From positions 1-42,077 of the IMG/VR virus record IMGVR_UViG_3300044899_000016: a DNA stretch of 42,077 nucleotides. The stretch is one strand, 5' to 3'. Source of the stretch: a virus (Duplodnaviria; Caudoviricetes). A model generated the notes under the pieces. It did not search any database. It saw nothing but the letters and a program-made list of their open reading frames with translations, and had not been told where the DNA came from. This document shows, piece after piece, positions 3,101-41,405 of this stretch. Both the position numbers and the translations under genes were made by a program. The number at the start of each line of letters is the position of its first letter. The first letter of the stretch is position 1.

Positions 3101-3318
3101 TCACTACTCGCCACTTCTAGCGATACTCGACCAAATGTGACTCGTCGACGACGCCGCACATCGAGCAGTCACAGTAAACGTGACAGCCCGGGCGAACTAC
3201 TCACCGGCCATTTCACACTTCGCGCGCCGTGACTGAGCTCTGAATCTTGAGCGCTGCGCCGTCACACCTGCAGCATCGCCAGAATTGAAGGTGATCGAGC
3301 CACGCTCAAATTGGCGAT
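3093..3318 (+). repeat. Composite palindromic element copy 1 (motif A, three motif B units, two motif A)
   Basis: 3093-3129 and 3229-3304 are inverted copies of 20673-20709 and 20497-20572. Motif B at 3137 (N26), 3180, 3229; motif A at 3107, 3275, 3301. Confidence 0.9.
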
Positions 3319-8823: not shown

Positions 8824-8864
8824 GTGACTGCTCGATGTGCGGCGAACTCCGGAGAGACACACTT
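8824..8864 (-). repeat. Solo motif B unit
   Basis: 41-bp perfect inverted match to 35719-35759, starting 3 bp after the tail tube stop codon. Confidence 0.95.
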
Positions 8865-11163: not shown

Positions 11164-11601
11164 ATGGGATTCTCAAAGAAAGATTATTCGCCGGAAGTGG
11201 CAATAGTCATCAATCATCCTTACTACCCTGAGACGCCTTTCGTCTTTCACTTTCAAAAGCTGATGCCGAAGGGCGCAGACGACGCGCTCAATGCCCTTAT
11301 CAATCTCAAAGAAGATGAGCGCAAAGAGGGCTATCGCTCGGCATGGCTCAACATCGTTTCTGAGTTAGCGACCAAAGCTCCAGAGGGCTTTGATGATTTT
11401 CCCATTGATGAGCGACCTTTGCCGGAGCGTATGCGCGAGTATTTTGACGACGCTGAGAAGCCGGAATTTGCCTCAATAATTTTTAGGGCGTGGAATGAGT
11501 ATCAGGCGGCGGCTATTCCTGCCGCCCGTTTGAAAAGCCTTTCGGATTATGGCGCGGGAAATAGTCAATCTACACGAGCAACTGAGGAAGCTAAATCCTA
11601 G
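11164..11601 (+). CDS. Tail assembly chaperone (G-like)
   Basis: Between tail tube and tape measure, with an overlapping downstream ORF as in lambda G/T. Confidence 0.7.
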   Translation: MGFSKKDYSPEVAIVINHPYYPETPFVFHFQKLMPKGADDALNALINLKEDERKEGYRSAWLNIVSELATKAPEGFDDFPIDERPLPERMREYFDDAEKPEFASIIFRAWNEYQAAAIPAARLKSLSDYGAGNSQSTRATEEAKS

Positions 11602-11956
11602 CTTCTCTGATTGCCCAAGCCCTTGCGCGCGTCGCTATGAAGATGGTGAGCGCGTCACGGATTTACCAGACCTTTGCGAGACGTGCGACGTGCGCTTTCA
11701 GTTGAAGTTTTTTGAAGAGAGCGCGCGAGCCGAACTAAGGCGCAGATTTCCCGATGGCTGCGCGTGGACGTTTGAAACTCTCTCGGCAGATGTGGCGAGG
11801 GTGCAGCGCATTGACAAAGATGTCAGAGGCAAAGGCTACCCGCGCAAGTGCGGCGAGTTGGAAGCGCGACTCTTAGACATCCTCAGAAGTGAAGAGTATA
11901 GGCCGCTCAGAATCATGCGCTGGGAAGACGCACAGAAGAGGGAGCGTGAAAAGTGA
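11549..11956 (+). CDS. Tail assembly chaperone extension (T-like), probably reached by frameshift
   Basis: Overlaps the G-like ORF in the +1 frame; CxxxC and CETC motifs. Confidence 0.65.
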   Translation: MAREIVNLHEQLRKLNPSFSDCPSPCARRYEDGERVTDLPDLCETCDVRFQLKFFEESARAELRRRFPDGCAWTFETLSADVARVQRIDKDVRGKGYPRKCGELEARLLDILRSEEYRPLRIMRWEDAQKREREK

Positions 11957-12557
11957 AGTTCGGCACATCAAAATTCTGGCAAGAGTTTCAAAAGCAGTTC
12001 GGGCACGCGCCGCAGGCGATTGAAAAGCAGGGCACTGAAACTCTGCTCACTTTAATTTCTTCCGATGCGCAGATAGAGCGCGTGGAATGGGCAGCTTACT
12101 TGCTCGGCACAATTCGCAACGAGTGCGGCTCAAACATGCAGCCCGTTAAAGAGATTAAGGCAGCAGTGGGCACGCTCGTTTGGGAGAAGTATCAAAGAAT
12201 TATTGGTCGTCGGGCTTCTATGGACGTGGCTACTCGCAACTGACGCTCAAAGGAAACTATCAGCAATTTTCTCAACTGCTCTTTAATGACAATCGCCTTG
12301 TTAAGAATCCTGACTTAGTTATGAAGCCGGAAGTAGGCTATCAAATTTTAGCGACAGGTTGCGTGCGAGGGCTTTTCCGTCGCCGCTCGAAAACCTCTGC
12401 CTTTAAGCTCTCGGATTTTCTCAACGACAAGATTAAAGATTACGTGGGCGCGCGCCAGATCGTGAACGGCGTAGGTGGCGCTGCTCGACAGTGGGCTTTG
12501 CGAGTCGGCGATTACTCTGAGCGTTACGAGACTTGCTTGCGGGCAAGTCAGGCGTGA
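11953..12557 (+). pseudogene. Glycoside hydrolase family 19-like endolysin, split by a frameshift near 12190-12200
   Basis: ORF 11953-12243 has AAYLLGTIRNEC...PVKE. ORF 12180-12557 has FYGRGYSQLT..NY, LVKNPDLV, ARQIVNG. One extra A in TATCAAAGAAT would join them (YQKNYW). Confidence 0.8.
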
Positions 12558-12590
12558 CGGCGCAGCGGAAAGGCTTAGGAGCTCAGTCAC
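12554..12590 (-). repeat. Solo motif B unit
   Basis: GTGAC-N27-GTCAC whose GTGAC contains the endolysin TGA stop. Interior resembles 20536-20572 and the reverse complement of 35814-35850. Confidence 0.9.
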
Positions 12591-12603
12591 AGGGGATGGA
12601 TTC

Positions 12604-15342
12604 ATGCCGAACAGGATAGTCGTTGAATTCGACGCAAGCGATGAAACGCAAGCCTCTGCGAAGGTTGTAGAGCTTCGCAGCGAGATAGACTCGCTAGGGA
12701 GCGCGTCCGCCGCTTCGTCTGCACAACTCTCGGCAGCCGCTCAAAAGTACGAAGCCGATTTAATCAAAGCTGGCGTGGCGTCTGCTCGCGCACGCGAAGA
12801 GGCAATCAAGTACGGGGCGGCGCAAGTAGAGGCCGCAGGTGCGACCGTGAAAGCGGCGGGAGAGGAAGCGAGAGCCGTTGAGCTATCAGCCGCACAACAA
12901 AAGGCCGCAGTCGAATCCTTACAACGTCAACGCTCGGCAGCTCTTATCGCTCAATTCAGAGATGAGGAAAGAGTGCGCGCCGAGAGCGCCAGAGCCGCCG
13001 CGCGAGCCGCAGAGCAACAAGCCGCGCTCGCGCTTCGCGCCGCCGAAAGTGAAGCGACAGGGGCGGGCGGAATCGGCGGGGGCTTGCGCGGTCAACGCGC
13101 AGCTTTGCGCGCGGGCGGGCGGGCGCTGGGGCTTCCCGGCGAAGCAACGCAGATTGGCGGCTTAGGTCTTTATGGCGGCGGCATTGCTGCAATAGGCTTA
13201 GGCATCGGCGCTCTCGCCGCAATTCGGGCTGAAATTCAAGCGATTTCGGAAGAAGAGCAGGCCGAAATAAACTTGAAGGTTGCCGCTCATAATACCGGGC
13301 AAACATTTCTTGAAGCCTCGGGCAACGCGCGCGCTTTCAGTTTTGCGCTGGCCGTCAATCACGAAGAGGCCGGGAAGCTCAGCGCCGCTTTCGGCGAATT
13401 GCAATTAAAGACGAGCGGCACAATCAAAGATGCGGACATCTCCAAATTCTCAACCCTGATTTCCGCGCAAGGATTAAAACCGGAAGACGCCGCCAAAGCG
13501 CTACAGGGCTTGGCGCGCGGCAATGCTGAAGCCTACGAGGAACTCACAGGCCATCGCGCCGATCTGGTGCTTGATAATTATGCGCGCTCAATTGGCACTA
13601 CTACCTCAAAGCTTACAGAGTGGGAGCGGGCGCAGGCGCTCTCTAATGATGCGCTTGCACGCTCAAGTGAGCTTACCTATATAGCTGACTTAAGAGCTAA
13701 GAGTCTGGAAGGAACGTATGCGCGATTAGGTCAAGTCGCTTCGGGGCTATATTCAACGCTTGGCGATATAGGAAGCGGCGGCGCAATCACCGAACTAAGG
13801 AATAGGCAAGATGCTATTGCGCTTGCCGAGCTTGGTCAAAAAGCTCTGCTTGGCTCGCCTCGACAGCAAGAGGAAGATTTAGCAAAGGCGCGGGCGCAGA
13901 ATGCGCGCGACCTTCAAGAGCGTCTGAGCGACCAAGAACGTGCGCGGCGGGCACTCCCTGAAAATTTCCAAGTTGGACTTTCAACGCAGGAGCGCGAGCA
14001 AGCGTCGCTCTCTCGCCTGCGCGCACAACGCGAAGCGGCGCAGGCTGAGTATGAAGCCTTCCAAAAGATTCAGTCTCAGTTTTCTTCTGACGATGCCAAG
14101 AAGTTTGATGACCAATTCAGAGACAGAATTCAATCTCTCACTGACCAGATACGCGGGTTACTTGATGCGGAAGCGCAAGCCGTCGCTCAAGCTCAAAAGA
14201 AAGTTGTAGATGAAGCCACACAGAGCGCGCAAGGTCTATTCAATTTCTTGAAAGGCTACGCGGGCAAAGATAATCCTTATGTCTCAATCTACACGGAAGC
14301 CAGACAAGCGGCAGAAAACTTTCAACAGACCGCGAAAAGCTTGAGCCAACAATACGGCGCGGCGGCTGATGAAGCAATCGCCAAGCTTGACCAACTGACC
14401 AAAGCCAAGCAAGCGGCGCTTGCCGAAGAAGGACTTGCACAACGTTTTTCTGACAAGCTGGACGCGCAAAGCTACCGTGATGAAGCGAAGGCTCTAAGGG
14501 CAGCGCCCGTCACGGCGCAGAGCGCGCAAGCTGATTCAACTTTCCAGCCCGAAAGCGCGCGCCGCGTGTTGCGCTCTGTGCATGACATTTCACTTGGCGG
14601 CGACTCTTCTTCTTTTCTCAGTAGTGGCGCATCCCGCTCTTCACAAGCTGCCGAAGCGGAAGCGGAAGAAAAGCGCATTGCTGAGGAAAGGTTGAGAGCA
14701 TTAGTTGCTGCAACGGACGCGGGCAGAATTCACGCCGACCCTCGACAATATGCGGCGGCGCATTTCAAGTTCACACAAGACGAACAATTCAGGGCGCTCG
14801 TCAATGCGAAAGACGCGGGCAAGTTCATCGGCGACCCGTCGCTAGTTTTTGATCCGAGGGGCGCAGGGGCGGCGGCTGGAGCTTCGCAGGCCATAGTTGA
14901 AGCTCGTAATGCTGCGCAACTAATTCAGCAGATGGAAATGGAAGCCGAAGCGCAGGGCATCAATCCTGCCGTTGCTCGAAAGCTTGCTGATGAGCAGATT
15001 ATATCTCGCGTCAAAGGCCACTTGAGCGACGCTGAATTAAGGTCGGATAGCGGACTTAGAGATTTAGTTGCTGGCGCGTATGAGCGTAGAGGAGACCGCT
15101 TTGACAGTCGTGAGTCCGACGCGATGAAGTTTGTTCAAAACCAAGCAAACCAGATAGCGGATTTAACTAAAACGATTCAAGGTTTAATTAAAGACAATCG
15201 GCTTCAAGTCAACGCGGGCGCGGCGGCGCAAATCAATATCAGCGCGAAAGACTTTAACATGACAAAAAGTACGCTTGGCCCGGCCATGACGCCTGATAGC
15301 ACTCGAGCGCTTCCGGGTTTCGCGCCCGGCTTTCGTGAATGA
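12604..15342 (+). CDS. Tail tape measure protein
   Basis: About 910 aa, Ala-rich helical, Gly-rich hydrophobic segment, follows the chaperones. Likely start ATG at 12604 (MPNRIVVEFD). Confidence 0.85.
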   Translation: MPNRIVVEFDASDETQASAKVVELRSEIDSLGSASAASSAQLSAAAQKYEADLIKAGVASARAREEAIKYGAAQVEAAGATVKAAGEEARAVELSAAQQKAAVESLQRQRSAALIAQFRDEERVRAESARAAARAAEQQAALALRAAESEATGAGGIGGGLRGQRAALRAGGRALGLPGEATQIGGLGLYGGGIAAIGLGIGALAAIRAEIQAISEEEQAEINLKVAAHNTGQTFLEASGNARAFSFALAVNHEEAGKLSAAFGELQLKTSGTIKDADISKFSTLISAQGLKPEDAAKALQGLARGNAEAYEELTGHRADLVLDNYARSIGTTTSKLTEWERAQALSNDALARSSELTYIADLRAKSLEGTYARLGQVASGLYSTLGDIGSGGAITELRNRQDAIALAELGQKALLGSPRQQEEDLAKARAQNARDLQERLSDQERARRALPENFQVGLSTQEREQASLSRLRAQREAAQAEYEAFQKIQSQFSSDDAKKFDDQFRDRIQSLTDQIRGLLDAEAQAVAQAQKKVVDEATQSAQGLFNFLKGYAGKDNPYVSIYTEARQAAENFQQTAKSLSQQYGAAADEAIAKLDQLTKAKQAALAEEGLAQRFSDKLDAQSYRDEAKALRAAPVTAQSAQADSTFQPESARRVLRSVHDISLGGDSSSFLSSGASRSSQAAEAEAEEKRIAEERLRALVAATDAGRIHADPRQYAAAHFKFTQDEQFRALVNAKDAGKFIGDPSLVFDPRGAGAAAGASQAIVEARNAAQLIQQMEMEAEAQGINPAVARKLADEQIISRVKGHLSDAELRSDSGLRDLVAGAYERRGDRFDSRESDAMKFVQNQANQIADLTKTIQGLIKDNRLQVNAGAAAQINISAKDFNMTKSTLGPAMTPDSTRALPGFAPGFRE

Positions 15343-15415
15343 TCCGCGCTCGTCATAAATAGCGAGCGGCGCCAAGGCGTGACGCGATGGCTGGCGCGCG
15401 CGCTCGAGCGGTCAC
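15341..15415 (+). repeat. Motif A (GATC-N4-CTCGT-N8-GCGAG) plus motif B unit after TMP
   Basis: GATC at 15341 overlaps the TMP stop; box at 15349-15366. GTGAC-N27-GTCAC at 15379-15415 shares GTGACGCGATGGC with 35585. Confidence 0.85.
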
Positions 15416-20470: not shown

Positions 20471-20736
20471 TCCGCCGGCGGCATCGTCACTTCCGGCGTG
20501 GCTCGATCACCTTCAATTTTGACGATGCTTCAGGTGTGACGGCGCAGCGCTTCAAGTTTGAAGCTCAGTCACATTTGAAAACGTGACTGACTAGGCTAAT
20601 TGCTTCCTGAAATGGTCACACATTCTGTGACTGCTCGATGTGCGGCGAACTCCAGAGAGACACACTTGCGCGCGAGTATCGCTAGGAATGGCGAGTGATG
20701 ATCATGTGACCTGGATGCGTCGCCGAAGATAGCGAG
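20469..20736 (-). repeat. Composite palindromic element copy 2 (inverted)
   Basis: Motif A at 20483, 20509, 20678, 20719; motif B at 20536, 20583, 20627. 20583-20673 is an inverted copy of 35713-35803 with 3 mismatches. Confidence 0.92.
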
Positions 20737-21939: not shown

Positions 21940-23133
21940 TTAGCCTTTCGATTTTGCGGCCATTTCCAGCAATCTCTCTTTTTCACTTACTTCTGAATCA
22001 GGCGAATTATCCGAACCATTAACAGCGACTTTGGCGACCAAAGCGGAGAGCGCGTCCGCCGTCTCGCGCCTACTCTCACTTCGCGCGTGGGCGTATCGCA
22101 TCAGGATTTGCTGCGTTGAATGTCTGCTCTGGCTTTGCACAGTCGCCAGGTCATAGCCCGCTTCAATTAAAGCCGTCACTGCGGTGTGCCGCGTGGTATG
22201 AAAGACGATGCCGTTTCGTTTGTCATATCCCCAGGGGATGCCGTGCTTTTCCGCCGCGCGCTTAACTATGTGAGTTGGCAAAAGTGAGACGGCGCGCTGT
22301 GGGTTGCGGTCCGAGGGAAAGACGAAAGGGCTTTCGGGATTCTGGCCTGACTTCCTTCGCTCGAATAATTCTATCAGTCTGGCAGGGATAAAAATGATTC
22401 CTTCCTCGTCCGTCTTTTTCGAGTCAATCCGAAGCTTCTTCTCTTTCCAGAAAATATCATCCCAGCGTAGAGTGCGTATCTCATCTTTTCTGGCGAGCGA
22501 GAGGAGCGCGACTTCAAAGAAATCTGCGGCATCAGAGCGAGCGCGAAAGGCTTGGCTGTTCTCGGTCTGATTTTTAGGCAGTCTTAACTCAGCGAGAATG
22601 AGCGCGATCTGCTCTCGTGAGATTGTGGCTTTACGATAGCCTTTAGGAATCTTGAGCTTTGGTCTTTTAGGCGCTCGCCATTCCGATAGCTCTGTGAAGA
22701 GTTCGGGCGCGCTATTTAAGCAGGCGTAAATGTCTGCCATCTCGCGGTGGACGCTCTGAGGCTTTAAACCTGAAGAGAGCCGCGCATCTCTATATTTAGC
22801 GAGATGAGCTGTCTTTACTTCTTCAACTAACAAGCTGTCGGGAAGTGTCGCGAGAAAAGATTTGAGAATGCGCGCCGCATTCTTTCGCATATAGGTTTTG
22901 TCGCCGATCTGTTTGATTCGCGCATTGACGAGTTGCCTGACGGTGATGCGCGCTGTCTGAGAGATGATTCCGGCCCCGCGCTCATTTGCTTTCACGCGCC
23001 GGATGGCGAGCGCGAGTTCCGCATTTTCTTTGGAGGCGAAACCTATCTTATGGACGCGCCTTCCCTTGATGCGTGAGTCATAGCCCCATGTCCAATCATT
23101 CAATAATGCGCTCCAAAATTGTCTGACGGCCAT
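21940..23133 (-). CDS. int: Tyrosine recombinase / phage integrase
   Basis: Catalytic pattern R (LARKDEI), K, HTTRH, H (RHS), Y (MRYAH). N-terminal arm-binding-like GFASKENA region. Confidence 0.92.
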   Translation of the reverse strand: MAVRQFWSALLNDWTWGYDSRIKGRRVHKIGFASKENAELALAIRRVKANERGAGIISQTARITVRQLVNARIKQIGDKTYMRKNAARILKSFLATLPDSLLVEEVKTAHLAKYRDARLSSGLKPQSVHREMADIYACLNSAPELFTELSEWRAPKRPKLKIPKGYRKATISREQIALILAELRLPKNQTENSQAFRARSDAADFFEVALLSLARKDEIRTLRWDDIFWKEKKLRIDSKKTDEEGIIFIPARLIELFERRKSGQNPESPFVFPSDRNPQRAVSLLPTHIVKRAAEKHGIPWGYDKRNGIVFHTTRHTAVTALIEAGYDLATVQSQSRHSTQQILMRYAHARSESRRETADALSALVAKVAVNGSDNSPDSEVSEKERLLEMAAKSKG

Positions 23134-23201
23134 AAGGCACACTTATCCCCGTAAAGTGAAAGGCACTTTTGAACGTGTTTTCGGGAGTTAATTAAGCGAA
23201 C

Positions 23202-27998: not shown

Positions 27999-28880
27999 AT
28001 GAGTACGAGTCAACAGGCGCTAGCGCGCCTCGAAACTTCTAATCAGCTTCAATCAGCAGACGACTTTGACATCTTCCGCATTGGCGAAACGCTTGCTAAA
28101 TCGGGCTACTTCGCGGACGCCAAAGATGTGGCGCAATGTGTGGTCAAAGTCTTGGCCGGGCGCGAGCTTGGCATTCCGCCGGTTGCCGCGATGACCGGTG
28201 TTTATATTATTCAGGGCAAGCCAAGTCTGAGCGCAAACCTAATGGCGGCGATCATCAAGCGAAGCGGGAAATATAACTACCGCGTCGTTCAGATGGACGC
28301 GCAGGTTTGCGAGATAGAGTTTTTCGAGCAGGGCGCGTCAATCGGGAAATCCGCTTTCTCTTTGCAGGACGCGAAAGTCGCGGGCGCGCTGGACGGCAAG
28401 AATAAGCATACCTGGGCAGCCTTCCCGCGCAACATGCTTTTTGCTCGCGCGCTCTCGAACGGCGCGCGTTGGTACACGCCAGATATTTTTTCGGGACCGA
28501 TCTATACGCCAGAGGAATTAGACGCGCGCGTTTCATCCGAGGGCATACCTGAGGCCGTTACGCCTGCACCCGTGCGCCAGCATCAACCGGCTCCTACCGC
28601 CACAACTGACGATGATCCTGTCGAGAGGGAGCGGCAAGAGATTGTCAAAGACATCTATGCGACCTGTGCGCTTCTTAACGAGAAAGGCGATAAGGCCATA
28701 GACGCGCAAGGCCGTGAAGCTCTCTGGAAGTCCACGTCCCTCAAGATTTTTGTCAACAAGGAATTCAAAGTAGGCGACGGTCTTGAGGCTCTATCTGTTG
28801 AATATTTGAAGAAGCTTCACGGGATGCTGAATCTCAGGCTTGACGCAATCACCCCTAAAGACGGAAGCCTATTACCCTAA
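27999..28880 (+). CDS. RecT/Red-beta-like single-strand annealing protein
   Basis: GRELGIPPVAAMTGVYIIQGKPSLSANLM, W..FPRNMLFARA, YTPEEL motifs. AAGGAG RBS. Confidence 0.75.
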   Translation: MSTSQQALARLETSNQLQSADDFDIFRIGETLAKSGYFADAKDVAQCVVKVLAGRELGIPPVAAMTGVYIIQGKPSLSANLMAAIIKRSGKYNYRVVQMDAQVCEIEFFEQGASIGKSAFSLQDAKVAGALDGKNKHTWAAFPRNMLFARALSNGARWYTPDIFSGPIYTPEELDARVSSEGIPEAVTPAPVRQHQPAPTATTDDDPVERERQEIVKDIYATCALLNEKGDKAIDAQGREALWKSTSLKIFVNKEFKVGDGLEALSVEYLKKLHGMLNLRLDAITPKDGSLLP

Positions 28881-30198
28881 AACTAAGAGCCGCGAGCATT
28901 GGCTAGATGCTCGCGGCTCAATCTACAAAGAAAGGAAGATAGAAACAGTGTCAACAACAATACCATCATCCACATCTTCAAATCAATCTTCTTCTACGAA
29001 GAAAAAGGGCGCGAGCGACATTAAAGGAGCGATTGAGGAAAATCGTAAGTTCCCTTCTGAGCTTGTCGAAAAAGGCTGGCGGCTGGCAAACGAAGGACGT
29101 CGCTTTTACGCGCACAATGACAAGACGGAGGCAATGACCGTCTTGCACGATACGATAGAGGCCGTCGCTGAAGAGGCAACAGAGATAGACGCTCGCAGCC
29201 AGAGCTACGGGCAGCACGAATTCATCCCGAAACAGGATAGCAAAACAATCTGTGCGCTCTGCTTTCAAGGTCGCAATGGAAAGCCGCATCGCCAGTGGAA
29301 AGAGGCACAGAAGAAAAATGATCTGGCATCGCAGGAAACGGCGAGCGGGACCGACGAGTCTGGCTCTCAAAAGCGCGTGATTGCTTTAGCTTTCCTCGCA
29401 GACTTAGAAGACGAGCAGAAAGGGCGCTGGGCGACGCTATGCGAGTACGAACGCCTCTATGAAGCCGCTACTAAGATTCGTGATAAGAGACGGCTCACGA
29501 AAGAGCGCATGAGGATCGTAGCTGACTATGATCGCGCCTGGGATGAAGCCATTAAAGCCCTCGACAATAACGAGGACGTCGTTCAGGAAGTGCGCGACCG
29601 TGTAGAAGCGAGCGGCTCGACCATCGCAACAGATGCCGATAGTGCCGGCGGATCGGCTCTCGTTGAAAGTGGCGAGCCTCCAGCGTGGCATGAGTATTTC
29701 GAGCAGACGCCAGGCGAAGGCTGCTTTCTCGGATGCGGCAAGCCGGAAGATGACCCTATCCATCACGAGCCTGCTACAGCTGAGCGCGCCGAGAATGGCG
29801 ATGCTGCAGAAACCTTGGCGCCGCTCGCCGAAACTGACGATGCGGGATCACAAAGCCCTTTCATCTTCACAAAAGAAATCGAAGTCGAATTAGCCGACTC
29901 CGATTACAAAGCTAAATCCCGCCAACTCGCTTTCCTTCGCGTCCAGATCGAAGAGCTACAGGCTGAGAAGAAAACCGCTGACGAAGGCTACAAACAGAAA
30001 ATAGGCGGGCTTGAAGAGCAATGCACTGAGCTATTCCGCTCAATTCGCAGAGGCCGCGACACGCTTAAGCTAGAAGTTTTCGAGCGGCGCGACTATGGGC
30101 GCAAAGTTGTCGAGACAGTGCGCGCGGACACGCAAGCGGTTGTCGAGTCGCGCCCGATGTTGCCGCGCGAGCTTCAGCAGCCTTTACCTTCAATCTAA
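28840..30198 (+). CDS. Mosaic hypothetical protein containing five in-frame motif A boxes
   Basis: Long ORF (true start uncertain) with two small Cys/His clusters and a C-terminal coiled coil. Confidence 0.6.
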   Translation: MTQSPLKTEAYYPKTKSREHWLDARGSIYKERKIETVSTTIPSSTSSNQSSSTKKKGASDIKGAIEENRKFPSELVEKGWRLANEGRRFYAHNDKTEAMTVLHDTIEAVAEEATEIDARSQSYGQHEFIPKQDSKTICALCFQGRNGKPHRQWKEAQKKNDLASQETASGTDESGSQKRVIALAFLADLEDEQKGRWATLCEYERLYEAATKIRDKRRLTKERMRIVADYDRAWDEAIKALDNNEDVVQEVRDRVEASGSTIATDADSAGGSALVESGEPPAWHEYFEQTPGEGCFLGCGKPEDDPIHHEPATAERAENGDAAETLAPLAETDDAGSQSPFIFTKEIEVELADSDYKAKSRQLAFLRVQIEELQAEKKTADEGYKQKIGGLEEQCTELFRSIRRGRDTLKLEVFERRDYGRKVVETVRADTQAVVESRPMLPRELQQPLPSI

Positions 30199-33899: not shown

Positions 33900-34745
33900 G
33901 TGAACCCGGAGCTATCGCCAAAATTGAAGAGGTCGAGTGTCGCCAGAAAGGGCGATGCGGTACTGATCGACGATAACACCGCTTCTGGCGATGGGCGCCA
34001 GCAACATCATATCCAGCGAGACAGCCTGAAGGTAAAACGTGCGAGCTATCCCGGCGGCAAAAACGGCGCAGGCGTCTATCAAAATATCATCTCTCTCATG
34101 CCGCCTCACGAAACCTATATCGAAGCCTTCTTAGGCGGCGGCGCGATTATGCGTTTGAAGCGACCAGCCGCGCGCAACATCGGGATTGATTTAGACGCGG
34201 CTGCCGTCAACGCTTTTCCTAGCGATGCAGTACCGCGACTGAAATTGATTGAAGGCGATGCGCTATCAATCTTGCGCGCTTGGCGCTTTGAAGGTGACAG
34301 CTATAGGCACACTCTAGCTTATATTGACCCGCCCTACCTTATGAGCACCCGCCGGCAGCATCGCCCTTTATATAGATGCGAGCTGTCGAGCGAAGCCGAT
34401 CATGTGCGCTTGCTTGAAATCCTGATGAATTTGCCGTGCATGGTCATGCTCAGTGGCTATCACTCGAAACTATATGACCGCGCTCTTTCGCATTGGCGGC
34501 GCGAAGAGTTCTACACGTCAGACAGAGGCGGGAATCGAAGGCTAGAGGTCGTCTGGATGAACTTCGCGGAGCCGTTAGAGCTTCACGACTATCGCTATTT
34601 GGGGCGTGGCTTCCGGGAACGCGAGCGCATCAAGAGAAAGCGTCTGCGCTGGCGCGCGCGTCTCGAAAGGATGCCCTCCTTAGAGCGTCACGCGCTGATG
34701 GCGACGATTGACGAGCTACGCCATGGATCCAATCGTCAAGAATAG
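33900..34745 (+). CDS. Dam-like (D12 class) N6-adenine DNA methyltransferase with basic C-terminal extension
   Basis: YPGGK, YIEAFLGGGAI, YIDPPY, MLSGY, EVVWMNF motifs, plus extra LHDYRYLG.GFRERERIKRK..RW tail. The first ~40 codons run through four motif A boxes. Confidence 0.9.
   Translation: MNPELSPKLKRSSVARKGDAVLIDDNTASGDGRQQHHIQRDSLKVKRASYPGGKNGAGVYQNIISLMPPHETYIEAFLGGGAIMRLKRPAARNIGIDLDAAAVNAFPSDAVPRLKLIEGDALSILRAWRFEGDSYRHTLAYIDPPYLMSTRRQHRPLYRCELSSEADHVRLLEILMNLPCMVMLSGYHSKLYDRALSHWRREEFYTSDRGGNRRLEVVWMNFAEPLELHDYRYLGRGFRERERIKRKRLRWRARLERMPSLERHALMATIDELRHGSNRQE
33914..34020. repeat. Cluster of four motif A boxes at the 5' end of the adenine MTase
   Basis: Boxes at 33914, 33939, 33975, 34003; a fifth at 34732-34749 spans the stop codon. 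Confidence 0.75.
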
Positions 34746-34768
34746 CGAGGGAGTACCGGAGAAATGAT

Positions 34769-34957
34769 ATGGCAGACGTAGATAATACCGAGATGGAGAA
34801 AGCAATTGATGAATCAGTTTTTCTCATCATCGTGCGCCAATTTGAAGAGATAACTAACCGGCTCAAATCAGAGGTTAAGGATTTGGAGCGCGAGAGGCGT
34901 ATAGCTTATAGCAAGGGCTATCAAGCTGGCTTGCGTGCTGCTGAGAAAAAGAAGTGA
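34769..34957 (+). CDS. Small coiled-coil hypothetical protein
   Basis: Between the two MTases; AYSKGYQAG motif; GGAG RBS. Confidence 0.55.
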   Translation: MADVDNTEMEKAIDESVFLIIVRQFEEITNRLKSEVKDLERERRIAYSKGYQAGLRAAEKKK

Positions 34958-35790
34958 ACCTCATCTTGTCTCTTTTTCCCGGTATAGACTTGCTCGGCAA
35001 AGGTTTCGAGCTTGAGGGCTATTGTGTAGTGCGCGGTCCAGACATCATTTATGGCGGCGACATAAGAAGCTTCCGCGCGCCCGCAAACCGCTTTGACGGC
35101 ATCATCGGCGGCTCTCCCTGTCAGGACTTCAGCTTAAAGCGTCGCACGCCGCCGACGGGCGAAGGCGTAGAGATGATGCGACAGTTCGGGCGCGTCGTCT
35201 TAGAGTCTGAGGCCGCTTGGTTTCTGCTTGAGAACGTGCCCGCCGCGCCTGACTTGAAGGTCTTTGGCTACACCGTTCAGCGCTTCGATTTGAACGCGCG
35301 CGAGTGCGGCCTTGCTCAGTCGCGTCTCAGACATTTTCAATTCGGCTCGCGCTCTGGTCTTGTTATCTCGCCGGAAAGAAGAAAGCCGAAAGGCAAAGCC
35401 GAAGCCATCTGTCTTGCGTCTGAAGGCGAGAGCGCGAGAGCGCGGCGCGCTTGGGGCGACTTCTGCGAGCTTCAGGGCTTGCCGCGCGATTTCGAGCTTC
35501 CGGGCTGGTCTATCGCTGCCAAGTATAGAGCCGTCGGCAACGGCGTGCCCGTGGCCGTGGCGCGCGTGATTGCGCGGGCGATCCGTGACGCGATGGCAGC
35601 GCCGCGCGGTCGCAGATTCACAGATGTCAAATTGTGCGCGTGCGGTTGCGGTCGCATCCTTGAAGGTAAACAGAAGGCGGCGACGCCAGCATGCAGGAAG
35701 AGACTTGAAAGAGCGCGCAAGTGTGTCTCTCCGGAGTTCGCCGCACATCGAGCAGTCACAGAATGTGTGACCATTTCAGGAAGCAATTAG
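34954..35790 (+). CDS. Compact C5-cytosine DNA methyltransferase with C-terminal zinc finger
   Basis: Motif I SLFPG, IV GGSPCQDFS, VI LENV, VIII QSRLR, X GNGVP. Very short target-recognition region. Extra CACGCG...TPACRKR tail. Confidence 0.9.
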   Translation: MNLILSLFPGIDLLGKGFELEGYCVVRGPDIIYGGDIRSFRAPANRFDGIIGGSPCQDFSLKRRTPPTGEGVEMMRQFGRVVLESEAAWFLLENVPAAPDLKVFGYTVQRFDLNARECGLAQSRLRHFQFGSRSGLVISPERRKPKGKAEAICLASEGESARARRAWGDFCELQGLPRDFELPGWSIAAKYRAVGNGVPVAVARVIARAIRDAMAAPRGRRFTDVKLCACGCGRILEGKQKAATPACRKRLERARKCVSPEFAAHRAVTECVTISGSN

Positions 35791-35922
35791 CCCGGTCAGT
35801 CACGCTTTTAATTGTGACCGAGTTCCTAAATCTTTCCGCAACGCCGTCACGCTTGAGCTGCACTCGCCACGTTCGGCGATATGCGATCCGCCGGCGTCAT
35901 CGTTACTTCCGGCGTGACGATC
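35713..35922 (+). repeat. Composite palindromic element copy 3, overlapping the C5-MTase 3' end
   Basis: Motif B at 35723, 35767, 35814 (plus 35585 inside the gene); motif A at 35863 and 35899. Confidence 0.92.
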
Positions 35923-36309: not shown

Positions 36310-36801
36310 ATGAACTCTCGCATGGACACGCCCGCAATCGCCCGCCGAAAGCCTGCCGCAACTGCCAACTGCCAACTGCCAACTGCCAACTCTATTGAGT
36401 GTCCGCGCGAGAGCATTCCAGCTTCAACGCCTTCTTTCAAATCCTTCGCGCATATCCGCAACCCGAAAGTGCGCCGCGCGAAAGAGTATGAGCAGCACCT
36501 GCTTTTCATGCGAGATTCATTTCCTGAATATAGCGCCGGGATTGAAAAGCAGATTGCATATGCAAGATCGCAAGCTGAGCGCGGGCGTGCCTCAGATCAC
36601 GACCAAGTTCTAAAGCAGATGGAATCATGCGCGCTCTCGTGCCGTGAAATCAGTGACGATCTTTCAATCCCTTACGCTACTGTCTATAAGATTTTGCAGG
36701 AGTATGCTGCAGCGGGCGTTGTCATTATCCGCCAGCATGCAGGCCGGGCAGGAAACAAGCCTGTCTGCTACTACTCGCTATCGCACGCACAGACGCTTTA
36801 A
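36310..36801 (+). CDS. Winged-helix DNA-binding protein, candidate late-gene activator
   Basis: LSCREISDDLSIPYATVYKILQEYAAAGVV HTH; last gene before the packaging operon. Confidence 0.65.
   Translation: MNSRMDTPAIARRKPAATANCQLPTANSIECPRESIPASTPSFKSFAHIRNPKVRRAKEYEQHLLFMRDSFPEYSAGIEKQIAYARSQAERGRASDHDQVLKQMESCALSCREISDDLSIPYATVYKILQEYAAAGVVIIRQHAGRAGNKPVCYYSLSHAQTL
36359..36391 (+). repeat. Heptamer tandem repeat (CAACTGC)x4+
   Basis: Seen directly in the sequence. Confidence 0.9.
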
Positions 36802-41330: not shown

Positions 41331-41405
41331 ATCAGAGCTTCCGACGTGACTCGATCAACTTCAATTTTGGCGATGCTTCAGGTGTGACTTCGCAGCTCAG
41401 TCACA
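41331..41405 (-). repeat. Partial composite element inside gpF
   Basis: Matches about 20490-20573, with a 16-bp deletion in the motif B unit (GTGAC-N11-GTCAC at 41384-41404). Confidence 0.88.

What the first reader, a model, noticed from the sequence alone, without database searches (positions are those of the whole stretch)
33900..35922. Two orphan methyltransferases with extra C-terminal domains, each embedded in its own family of dispersed long palindromic sites: candidate addressed-methylation system
Seen: a Dam-like MTase with a basic helical tail has four motif A boxes at its 5' end and one over its stop codon. A compact C5-MTase with a very short target-recognition region and a CxCGCG...C zinc-finger tail has four motif B units in and after its 3' end. 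Each motif carries a short methylatable sequence at a fixed distance from a longer palindrome: GATC 4 bp outside box A, and CCGG/TCGA 3 bp inside the arms of box B. Established: D12/Dam-class enzymes typically methylate GATC, and C5-MTases make m5C. Inference: the extra domains dock on the long palindromes and restrict methylation to adjacent targets. This would give site-specific marks at gene boundaries, for regulation, self-marking or methyl-directed recombination. I do not know of a described system like this.
Basis: partly seen in the sequence, partly recalled or inferred. Interest (0 to 1): 0.92.

Follow-up and report, generated by a model that had tools for sequence, protein, structure and literature searches.

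The report
Methylases docking beside catalogued restriction sites
This phage carries two stripped-down DNA methylases, each with its own family of palindromic boxes that sit at a fixed distance from the exact base that many different bacterial restriction systems methylate, so the enzymes likely dock on the boxes to mark and monitor those bases, which would explain long-puzzling repeat clusters in a major plasmid family.

Summary
The finding is real and family-wide. Both enzymes lack the usual target-recognition domain but keep their catalytic motifs. Each goes with its own palindrome: box A (TCGCC-N6-GGCGA) with the amino-MTase, box B (GTGAC-N27-GTCAC) with the C5/zinc-finger MTase. Each half-box fixes one base: C or A seven bases outside box A, C five bases inside box B. 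That base is not mainly in GATC or YCGR. It is the methylated base of many R-M sites, in published registers: 211/294 and, held out, 139/219 for B, against about 30% in shuffles. This phage has purged GCCGGC, GGCGCC, GAGCTC, TCCGGA, TGATCA and GGATCC everywhere except over these bases. The amino-MTase is the IncP-1beta plasmid protein Upf31 family (52% identity), and box A matches its repeats, published as unexplained. Upf31 represses its own promoter and showed no genome-wide methylation, in a SMRT test that lacked the box clusters. New here are the fixed target base, the R-M catalogue, and the second family. Best reading (0.45): docked dimers methylate one strand and monitor host R-M marks. 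The main rival is controllable fragile sites. Neither methylation nor purpose is shown.

The parts
33900..34745 (+). Amino-MTase (Upf31 family, D12/alpha order) without a target-recognition domain; catalytic core from about 34047 (YPGGK); start codon uncertain, the first ~45 codons are made of A boxes
34563..34727 (+). C-terminal tail (LHDYRYLG..RERERIKRK..W..LER helical hairpin); predicted box-A binding and dimerisation part
   Evidence: tail needed for repression in Upf31
34769..34957 (+). 62-aa ORF between the two MTases; no family found; not among the recurring neighbours of relatives
34954..35790 (+). C5-MTase with PC, ENV, QxRxR and GNGV motifs and the target-recognition domain almost deleted
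35635..35724 (+). Four-cysteine zinc-finger plus basic helix (CACGCG..C-RKR); predicted box-B binding part
33915..34019 (.). Four A boxes (33915, 33940, 33976, 34004); targets in CCGG, TCGA, GTAC and GGCGCC among others
34210..34607 (.). Three A boxes inside the amino-MTase gene (34210, 34361, 34592)
34733..34748 (.). A box over the stop codon; left target is C5 of the window's only GGATCC, right target is the A of GTAC
35585..35850 (.). Four B units (35585, 35723, 35767, 35814)
35864..35915 (.). Two A boxes closing the array
3108..3317 (.). Dispersed composite A+B array without an MTase gene, upstream of the head-scaffold gene
20484..20735 (.). Dispersed composite array (A, three B, A, A); 144 bp of it is 86% identical, inverted, to 35713-35856
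8824..8860 (.). Single B unit, part of a 41-bp exact inverted copy of 35719-35759
12554..12590 (.). Single B unit
15350..15415 (.). A box plus B unit after the 955-aa ORF
29329..29840 (.). Five A boxes inside ORF 28840-30198
41358..41373 (.). A box in a partial copy of the 20.5-kb array

Best explanation
Two methyltransferases that lack their own sequence-recognition domain each travel with a family of palindromic DNA boxes that place the methylated base of many different host restriction sites at one fixed position, where the enzymes likely dock as dimers through their tails, likely methylate that base on one strand, and so would both shield those sites and report whether the host has already marked them. 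Shown: missing recognition domains, intact catalytic motifs, family-specific boxes, the fixed base, its match to published R-M methylation registers, the placement of a box inside the gene's own promoter in many relatives, and, for the plasmid homologue Upf31, tail-dependent self-repression (published). Inferred: tail-box binding for the C5 family, dimer geometry (catalytic domains outside a central box for A, inside two outer arms for B), and one-strand methylation (about 0.7 for this core). Least certain is the purpose: the arrays act as a multi-specificity gauge or sink for host R-M methylation that sets how much enzyme is free to repress box-bearing promoters and, in IncP-1beta plasmids, to alter the regulon that includes the anti-restriction gene klcA.
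For: Recognition domain gone: about 7 residues where M.HaeIII has 87 and 20 where DpnM has 110. PC/ENV/QxRxR and DPPY are invariant in 34 of 34 sequences each. Box specificity: C5-only loci have 231 B and 9 A boxes near the gene; amino-only loci have 332 A and 10 B (own-family counts are partly circular because the matrices were trained there). Held-out set: 227 units at spacer 27 against 0-12 at other spacers, in 71 of 80 loci. Registers: 211/294 and 139/219 unique C targets of B lie in m5C registers of PMC8112702 S5, against shuffles of 92.5+-7.4 and 63+-6; non-cognate registers are depleted, 6 vs 17 both times. A targets: 140/240 in amino registers, mostly from PMC4752239 S3, against 55+-6. 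Chemistry split (B of 513, A of 172): CCWGG C1 73 vs 1; CTCGAG C3 10 vs 0; CTCGAG C1 0 vs 3; GGCGCC C5 0 vs 6; RGATCY C5 3 vs 13. Target C>T decay 53 vs 13 expected; partner-strand G>A 26 vs 16, 15 of them TCGA>TCAA. Promoter: TTGAC at exactly -9 in 29 of 173 upstream A boxes and 0 of 176 downstream; the G of TTGACA pairs with the target C in both families. Rare sites kept only at targets: 21 of 89 in the window against 1.5% of positions; all four XhoI and all four PstI sites in the pB3 backbone. A cassette holds about 4.5 of 9 scored specificities, with few repeats. Upf31 lowers XylE from 4.76 to 0.09, costs fitness only with the plasmid present, and raises klcA; KlcA is anti-restriction (abstract).
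Against: No methylation has been observed. Upf31 gave no SMRT signal in ER2796 with an expression vector, and its authors conclude it is likely not a methylase. Array content does not track local site avoidance across loci: for B the sites present are less avoided in the flanks (pooled z +0.38, permutation sd 0.12), for A no effect, and pooled 6-mers show no difference. An enzyme that writes the mark erases what it would read, and the steady repression by Upf31 shows no dependence on host marks so far. Arrays are commoner downstream (90 of 129) than upstream (58 of 129) of C5 genes. This window's own MTases have no TTGAC-box promoter (absent from the listing). For A, non-cognate registers are also raised, 43 vs 24. 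36 of 159 C5 homologues have no recognised unit, and two distant plasmid homologues have no box cluster at >=16 bits. Motif I of the C5 enzyme is atypical (FPGID). Half-sites share ancestry, so the shuffles overstate significance.
Confidence: 0.45

Rival explanations
1. Controllable fragile sites: the enzyme writes a protective one-strand mark on restriction sites that the element keeps on purpose. Lapses after replication or transfer let whichever host endonuclease is present cut at module borders, which moves the cassette, captures cargo and punishes loss of the gene (addiction with borrowed nucleases).
For: Arrays flank the C5 gene on both sides in 44 of 129 loci. No recombinase or nuclease is a recurring neighbour in most loci, and contexts vary. 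Arrays are copied within this genome. Sites are purged elsewhere but kept at targets. IncP-1beta restriction-site clusters are described as possible integration hot spots (passage). Restriction of unmethylated CCGG drives pilin recombination in Neisseria (abstract).
Against: The benefit is second-order while the cost of keeping cleavable sites is immediate, yet 435 of 513 C targets are in listed sites. Orphan arms show no clear excess at the outer edges of arrays. It does not explain the promoter placement.
Confidence: 0.25
2. Pure reader: the proteins are repressors that flip the base to read host marks but never methylate.
For: No SMRT signal and no Dam activity for Upf31; strong self-repression. 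Atypical motif I in the C5 enzyme.
Against: SAM-binding and catalytic residues are invariant. C>T decay is biased to the target strand, although base flipping alone could also raise deamination. The SMRT test had no box clusters.
Confidence: 0.13
3. Bait: one-strand marks made in the previous host turn the arrays into hemimethylated loading sites that recruit the next host's methylases onto incoming DNA, helping modification outrun restriction.
For: Needs exactly the cognate base and a broad catalogue, and gains from dispersal. A preference of many MTases for hemimethylated DNA is established knowledge (recalled).
Against: There are few sites per specificity per genome. I know of no evidence that such loading spreads protection. 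It does not explain repression.
Confidence: 0.1
4. The arrays template or license genome-wide methylation of the catalogued sites, making a multispecific or non-specific anti-restriction enzyme.
For: It would explain the catalogue directly. Sites present in B arrays are less avoided in the flanks.
Against: GATC is in the IncP-1beta boxes, yet dam- cells with pBP136 stay unmethylated at GATC; no genome-wide signal in ER2796. This phage still avoids the sites. No G.U strand bias, so no RNA guide.
Confidence: 0.05
5. Ordinary orphan Dam/Dcm-like genes with chance or passively shielded repeats.
For: Pfam and PADLOC names only.
Against: Spacer spectra, family specificity, registers and held-out replication. 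Shielding alone would give neutral site frequencies (20% of random C), not 63-72%.
Confidence: 0.02

Closest known systems
Upf31 and the four inverted-repeat groups of IncP-1beta plasmids (Elg et al., bioRxiv 10.1101/2024.02.05.579024; MBE PMC11997246; repeats first described by Thorsted et al. 1998, not read)
   Same: 52% identical over 225 aa to pAKD1 Upf31, same tail and same box A. A box lies between TTGACA and GATGCT in its promoter. The gene is embedded in its repeats.
   Different: The passages and sections I read give no purpose for the repeats, no fixed target base and no R-M register, call the gene nearly exclusive to IncP-1beta, and conclude it is likely not a methylase. Here the family is widespread in phages and is paired, sometimes fused, with an unrelated C5/zinc-finger enzyme that has its own box.
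Dam / DpnM (alpha-class amino-MTases)
   Same: Fold, motif order, DPPY.
   Different: No recognition domain; the target is C more often than A; not GATC-specific.
M.HaeIII / M.HhaI / Dcm-type C5-MTases
   Same: Catalytic fold and motifs.
   Different: Recognition domain nearly deleted; zinc-finger tail; target context varies.
Autoregulatory C5-MTases such as M.SsoII and M.EcoRII (recalled; search gave one listing only)
   Same: A methylase with an extra DNA-binding part that represses its own promoter through a palindrome.
   Different: Those keep a recognition domain and belong to R-M systems; they have one operator and no catalogue of foreign sites.
Multispecific phage C5-MTases (SPR, phi3T, rho11) (recalled)
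   Same: Cover the same kinds of site (GGCC, CCGG, CCWGG, GCNGC, GAGCTC).
   Different: They carry several recognition domains and act genome-wide; here the variety is in the DNA and the protein has none.
Phage Mu mom control by host Dam and OxyR (recalled; listing only)
   Same: A mobile element reads host methylation at a promoter.
   Different: One host mark and a host reader, against many marks and an element-encoded methylase.

Membership tests
Upf31 family | Full-length sequence similarity including the C-terminal tail | tested here: met
   118/225 identical, E 3e-79
Upf31 family | Gene embedded in the IncP-1beta-type inverted repeats | tested here: met
   A matrix trained on the fetched viral and genome loci finds both the window's boxes and the pAKD1/pB3 clusters
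Upf31 family | Box between -35 and -10 of its own promoter | tested here: not met
   Not seen in this window (absent from the listing; the gene overlaps the upstream stop codon); met in 29 of 173 upstream boxes of relatives
Upf31 family | Tail-dependent self-repression | not testable with these tools
   Published for Upf31 only
Dam family | Helical target-recognition domain between motifs II/III and IV | tested here: not met
   20 vs 110 residues
Dam family | Score above the curated TIGR00571 cut-off | tested here: not met
   27.5 vs 114.85 bits
Dam family | GATC methylation | not testable with these tools
   Negative for Upf31
Canonical C5-MTase (Dcm/HaeIII/HhaI) | Motifs IV (PC), VI (ENV), VIII, X | tested here: met
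   Invariant in 34 of 34
Canonical C5-MTase (Dcm/HaeIII/HhaI) | Motif I FxGxG | tested here: inconclusive
   FPGID in most members, FPGIG/FPGLG in some
Canonical C5-MTase (Dcm/HaeIII/HhaI) | Target-recognition domain between motifs VIII and IX | tested here: not met
   About 7 vs 87 residues; 58.3 vs 100.65 bits for TIGR00675
Type II R-M system | Cognate endonuclease nearby | tested here: not met
   None in the window and none recognisable among the 45 largest neighbour clusters within 2.5 kb, judged by sequence only
RNA-guided array (TIGR- or CRISPR-like) | Strand-asymmetric structured RNA units | tested here: not met
   G.U-type vs A.C-type arm mismatches 197 vs 200 (A) and 27 vs 19 (B); left and right halves alike; no Rfam hit
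Multispecific phage C5-MTases | Several target-recognition domains | tested here: not met

The most novel reading that the evidence does not exclude
A new class of mobile-element system, evolved twice on two methylase chemistries, in which target choice has moved from the protein into the DNA: box arrays hold a catalogue of host R-M sites in register, and a docking methylase marks them and reads the host's R-M status to switch anti-restriction or lifestyle genes.
Probability: 0.4. Interest if true: 0.93.

Novelty: categorically new. Interest (0 to 1): 0.86.

Why it matters
It gives a testable explanation for the repeat and restriction-site clusters of IncP-1beta plasmids, which a 2025 paper still lists as without explanation. 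It also offers a reason why a conserved methylase was scored inactive: the SMRT test DNA lacked its docking clusters. It would show that phages and plasmids interact with many host R-M systems at once through designed DNA rather than through protein specificity. A compact enzyme that methylates one base at a fixed distance from a short box, whatever the context, would be a natural addressable methylase. The rating 'categorically new' is for the system type; one member (Upf31 with box A) was already studied without this mechanism.

Tried and rejected
RNA-guide reading: rejected. Host-tracking test (do arrays hold the sites their flanks avoid?): not supported across loci, though clear within this window and for four of six sites in pB3. 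Orphan-arm test for joining at restriction cuts: no clear pattern. Conserved partner genes: none except each other, 27 loci. Other enzymes on the amino-MTase tail: none among 29 scanned of the best 150 of 1839 hits, apart from one integrase SAM-like N-terminus; 12 tail-only hits look like fragments. Atlas searches of both tails gave no named family. Vsr-repair survivorship was rejected by reasoning, because it cannot explain m4C/m6A targets. Box motifs were not found in the methylome supplements of PMC4752239 or as motif strings in the library. Homodimer modelling was not available, so there is no verdict. No RNA holder was listed. Contigs break at the array copies, so inversion or excision could not be judged. 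The scan's earlier findings gave nothing. Paper searches listed no description of the C5/zinc-finger family, box B or the register rule. The library lacks most subscription papers, including Thorsted 1998, which may already note that restriction sites adjoin the repeats (recalled, not checked).
Full report
Setting. The window is a temperate phage record of 42,077 bases (capsid 4129, integrase 21940-23142, terminase 37853, portal 39159). The two genes lie at 33900-34745 and 34954-35790 with a 62-aa ORF between them. The stretch is held by two soil metagenome runs, one of which may be the source.

The observation. Box B is GTGAC-N27-GTCAC and box A is TCGCC-N6-GGCGA. Some copies share descent: a 41-bp exact inverted copy at 8824 and a 144-bp, 86% copy at 20530.

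The proteins. Both are large families: the best 120 C5 hits are 59% identical or more, and the amino-MTase has 2055 hits among 2970 candidates. Catalytic residues and the four tail cysteines are invariant in alignments of 34. Against solved structures the C5 profile skips from M.HaeIII 167 to 254 in about 7 positions, and the amino profile from DpnM 74 to 184 in 20. The skipped stretches are the target-recognition regions (established knowledge). Models are confident (pLDDT 90.5 and 85.3) and match HaeIII/HhaI and Dam folds. Fourteen long proteins were found; the seven read are amino-C5 fusions.

The boxes belong to the families. In 215 fetched loci (duplicates included), exact B units at spacer 27 number 176 in 63 C5-only loci, 55 in 33 loci with both genes, 23 in 83 amino-only loci and 0 in 36 controls, against 0-8 at other spacers. 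After removing identical genes, near-gene counts are B 231 / A 9 for 61 C5-only loci and A 332 / B 10 for 78 amino-only loci. In 80 held-out metagenome loci there are 227 units at spacer 27, in 71 loci. Hosts named in record titles span Blastocatellia, Chloroflexota, Verrucomicrobiota, Proteobacteria and Bacteroidota. Of 159 C5 genes, 110 have GTGAC units, 8 GTTAC, 5 GTGAA and 36 none; the sixth tail-helix residue is R in 107 of 109 GTGAC cases and D in 7 of 8 GTTAC cases, probably a single event. B units often interleave at offsets of 14-20 bp, and arm mismatches show no strand bias. Both facts point to double-stranded DNA read by a dimer, not to RNA.

The fixed base. Each half-box fixes one base: C in 368 of 434 for B; C in 180 and A in 71 of 272 for A. 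This fits the chemistry, since C5 enzymes act on C and DPPY enzymes on exocyclic amines of A or C (established knowledge). The base lies in a 4-5-bp palindrome in 370 of 434 and 234 of 272 half-sites, against column shuffles of 239+-10 and 138+-8. Against 23 m5C motifs from S5 Table of PMC8112702 (the non-palindromic row left out), 211 of 294 unique C targets are the cognate methylated base (shuffle 92.5+-7.4; random C 20%). Of new held-out ones, 139 of 219 are (63+-6). Other cytosines of the same motifs are depleted, 6 vs 17 in both sets. For A, 140 of 240 match amino registers (55+-6), taken from S3 Table of PMC4752239 (90 of 93 m4C rows and selected m6A rows seen) plus two added by me (GATC A2 and the reverse strand of CTGAAG); non-cognate registers are also raised (43 vs 24). 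Where m5C and m4C registers differ, the families split accordingly. One base often serves two sites, 90 cases against 40+-5 in flank swaps, though the swaps also break single sites. A cassette carries about 4.5 of 9 scored specificities with few repeated half-sites. Related half-sites are not independent, so these controls overstate significance; the held-out set and the variety of motifs are the safeguard.

Sites kept only at boxes. In this phage all four GCCGGC, all three GGCGCC, both GAGCTC, both TCCGGA, both TGATCA, the single GGATCC, TGGCCA and CCATGG, and two of three CTGCAG lie over a target. Among 6-bp palindromes with six or fewer copies, 21 of 89 do, where 1.5% of positions would (O/E elsewhere 0.02-0.14). 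In the 35.8-kb backbone part of plasmid pB3, all four CTCGAG, all four CTGCAG, the one GGGCCC, two of three GTCGAC and three of five TGGCCA do. Pooled over many loci this contrast is not seen, and B sites are less avoided in loci whose arrays contain them.

Writing and regulation. Decayed B half-sites show target C>T 53 times (13 expected), partner-strand G>A 26 (16 expected; 15 are TCGA>TCAA, the -35 sequence) and other transitions 20 (24 expected). This suggests one-strand m5C, or at least flipping, by the element's enzyme. TTGAC lies at exactly -9 from 29 of 173 upstream A boxes and from none of 176 downstream, putting the box between -35 and a GATAAT/GATACT-type -10. For B it lies at +25 in 6 of 111. 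In both families the G of TTGACA pairs with the target C.

What is known. The amino-MTase hits 123 plasmid records, 110 conjugative, several annotated upf31.0, and is 52% identical to pAKD1 Upf31. I read the abstract, whole Results and Discussion of Elg et al. (bioRxiv) and passages of the journal version, but not their supplements, which may bear on how the SMRT data were analysed. They report tail-dependent self-repression through a promoter containing the repeat, a 49% fitness cost that needs the plasmid, raised kor, kle and klc expression, no GATC methylation in dam- cells with the plasmid, and no SMRT signal with an expression vector. They propose an interaction with KorB and state that the repeats have no known purpose. 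A review passage notes clustered restriction sites in IncP-1beta as possible hot spots. KlcA is anti-restriction (abstract). My searches found no account of the fixed base, the register rule, box B or the C5 family; Thorsted 1998 was not available. M.SsoII, the SPR-type enzymes and Mu mom are recalled only.

Interpretation. Genome-wide methylation is made unlikely by the Upf31 data, and passive shielding cannot lift site frequency from 20% to 63-72%. The vocabulary of the arrays is that of host R-M enzymes, so the arrays are built to engage them. I infer docking by the tails, dimer geometry, and one-strand methylation of the fixed base (about 0.7). For purpose I favour marking plus monitoring of host R-M status (0.45), because it gives a direct benefit for many different sites and fits the promoter placement and the regulatory phenotype. 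Controllable fragile sites (0.25), a non-writing reader (0.13) and methylase bait (0.10) remain open. The per-base mapping and pre-methylation tests listed under next steps separate them.

Verdict. A real, widespread and apparently undescribed kind of system, one half of which was studied as an unexplained plasmid repressor. Interest 0.86.

Noticed in passing
window:10929-11162: Acb2/Tad1-type hairpin protein (anti-CBASS/Thoeris sponge family), Pfam E 1.6e-10.
   Followed up: no
window:22-1644 vs 12475-15342; 1714-2497 vs 11164-11956: Apparently paralogous unannotated ORF sets (67% nucleotide identity over 412 bp for the second pair; short matches at the 3' ends for the first); the long pair shares an A-box-like stretch at the stop codon.
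   Followed up: no
window:3986-4064: 39-nt arm hairpin between the scaffold and capsid genes.
   Followed up: no
window:5479-5559: Inverted tandem GTGACGA repeats, not at spacer 27.
   Followed up: no
window:36361-36391: Short tandem repeat (CAACTGC-like) in ORF 36310-36801, where many contigs have loose ends.
   Followed up: no
window:20624-35748: Logan contigs break at the two inverted array copies, so the orientation of this 15-kb segment is not proven and it could be invertible.
   Followed up: partly
L303:2780-3000 (Pseudoalteromonas phage GXT1010): A cultured phage annotated as a corticovirus has a C5/zinc-finger homologue preceded by direct repeats of half-sites only (GTCAC with G five bases before it, in CCWGG/CCGG), with no N27 pairs (read by eye).
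   Followed up: partly
L302:2370-2520 (Salmonella phage SEN5): A P2-like phage has a divergent-tailed amino-MTase behind variant A boxes with TGGCCA and CTGCAG at the target.
   Followed up: partly
L039, L041, L044-L046, L048, L052, L054; L209, L213: Variant boxes GTTAC-N27-GTAAC and GTGAA-N27-TTCAC with the same target register.
   Followed up: yes
P0242-P0255: Single-chain fusions of the amino-MTase and the C5/zinc-finger enzyme (14 found, 7 read).
   Followed up: partly
L030, L033, L034, L191, L201-L204: C5 cassettes beside Zot-like ATPase genes, which suggests filamentous prophages (family name recalled from the sequence).
   Followed up: no
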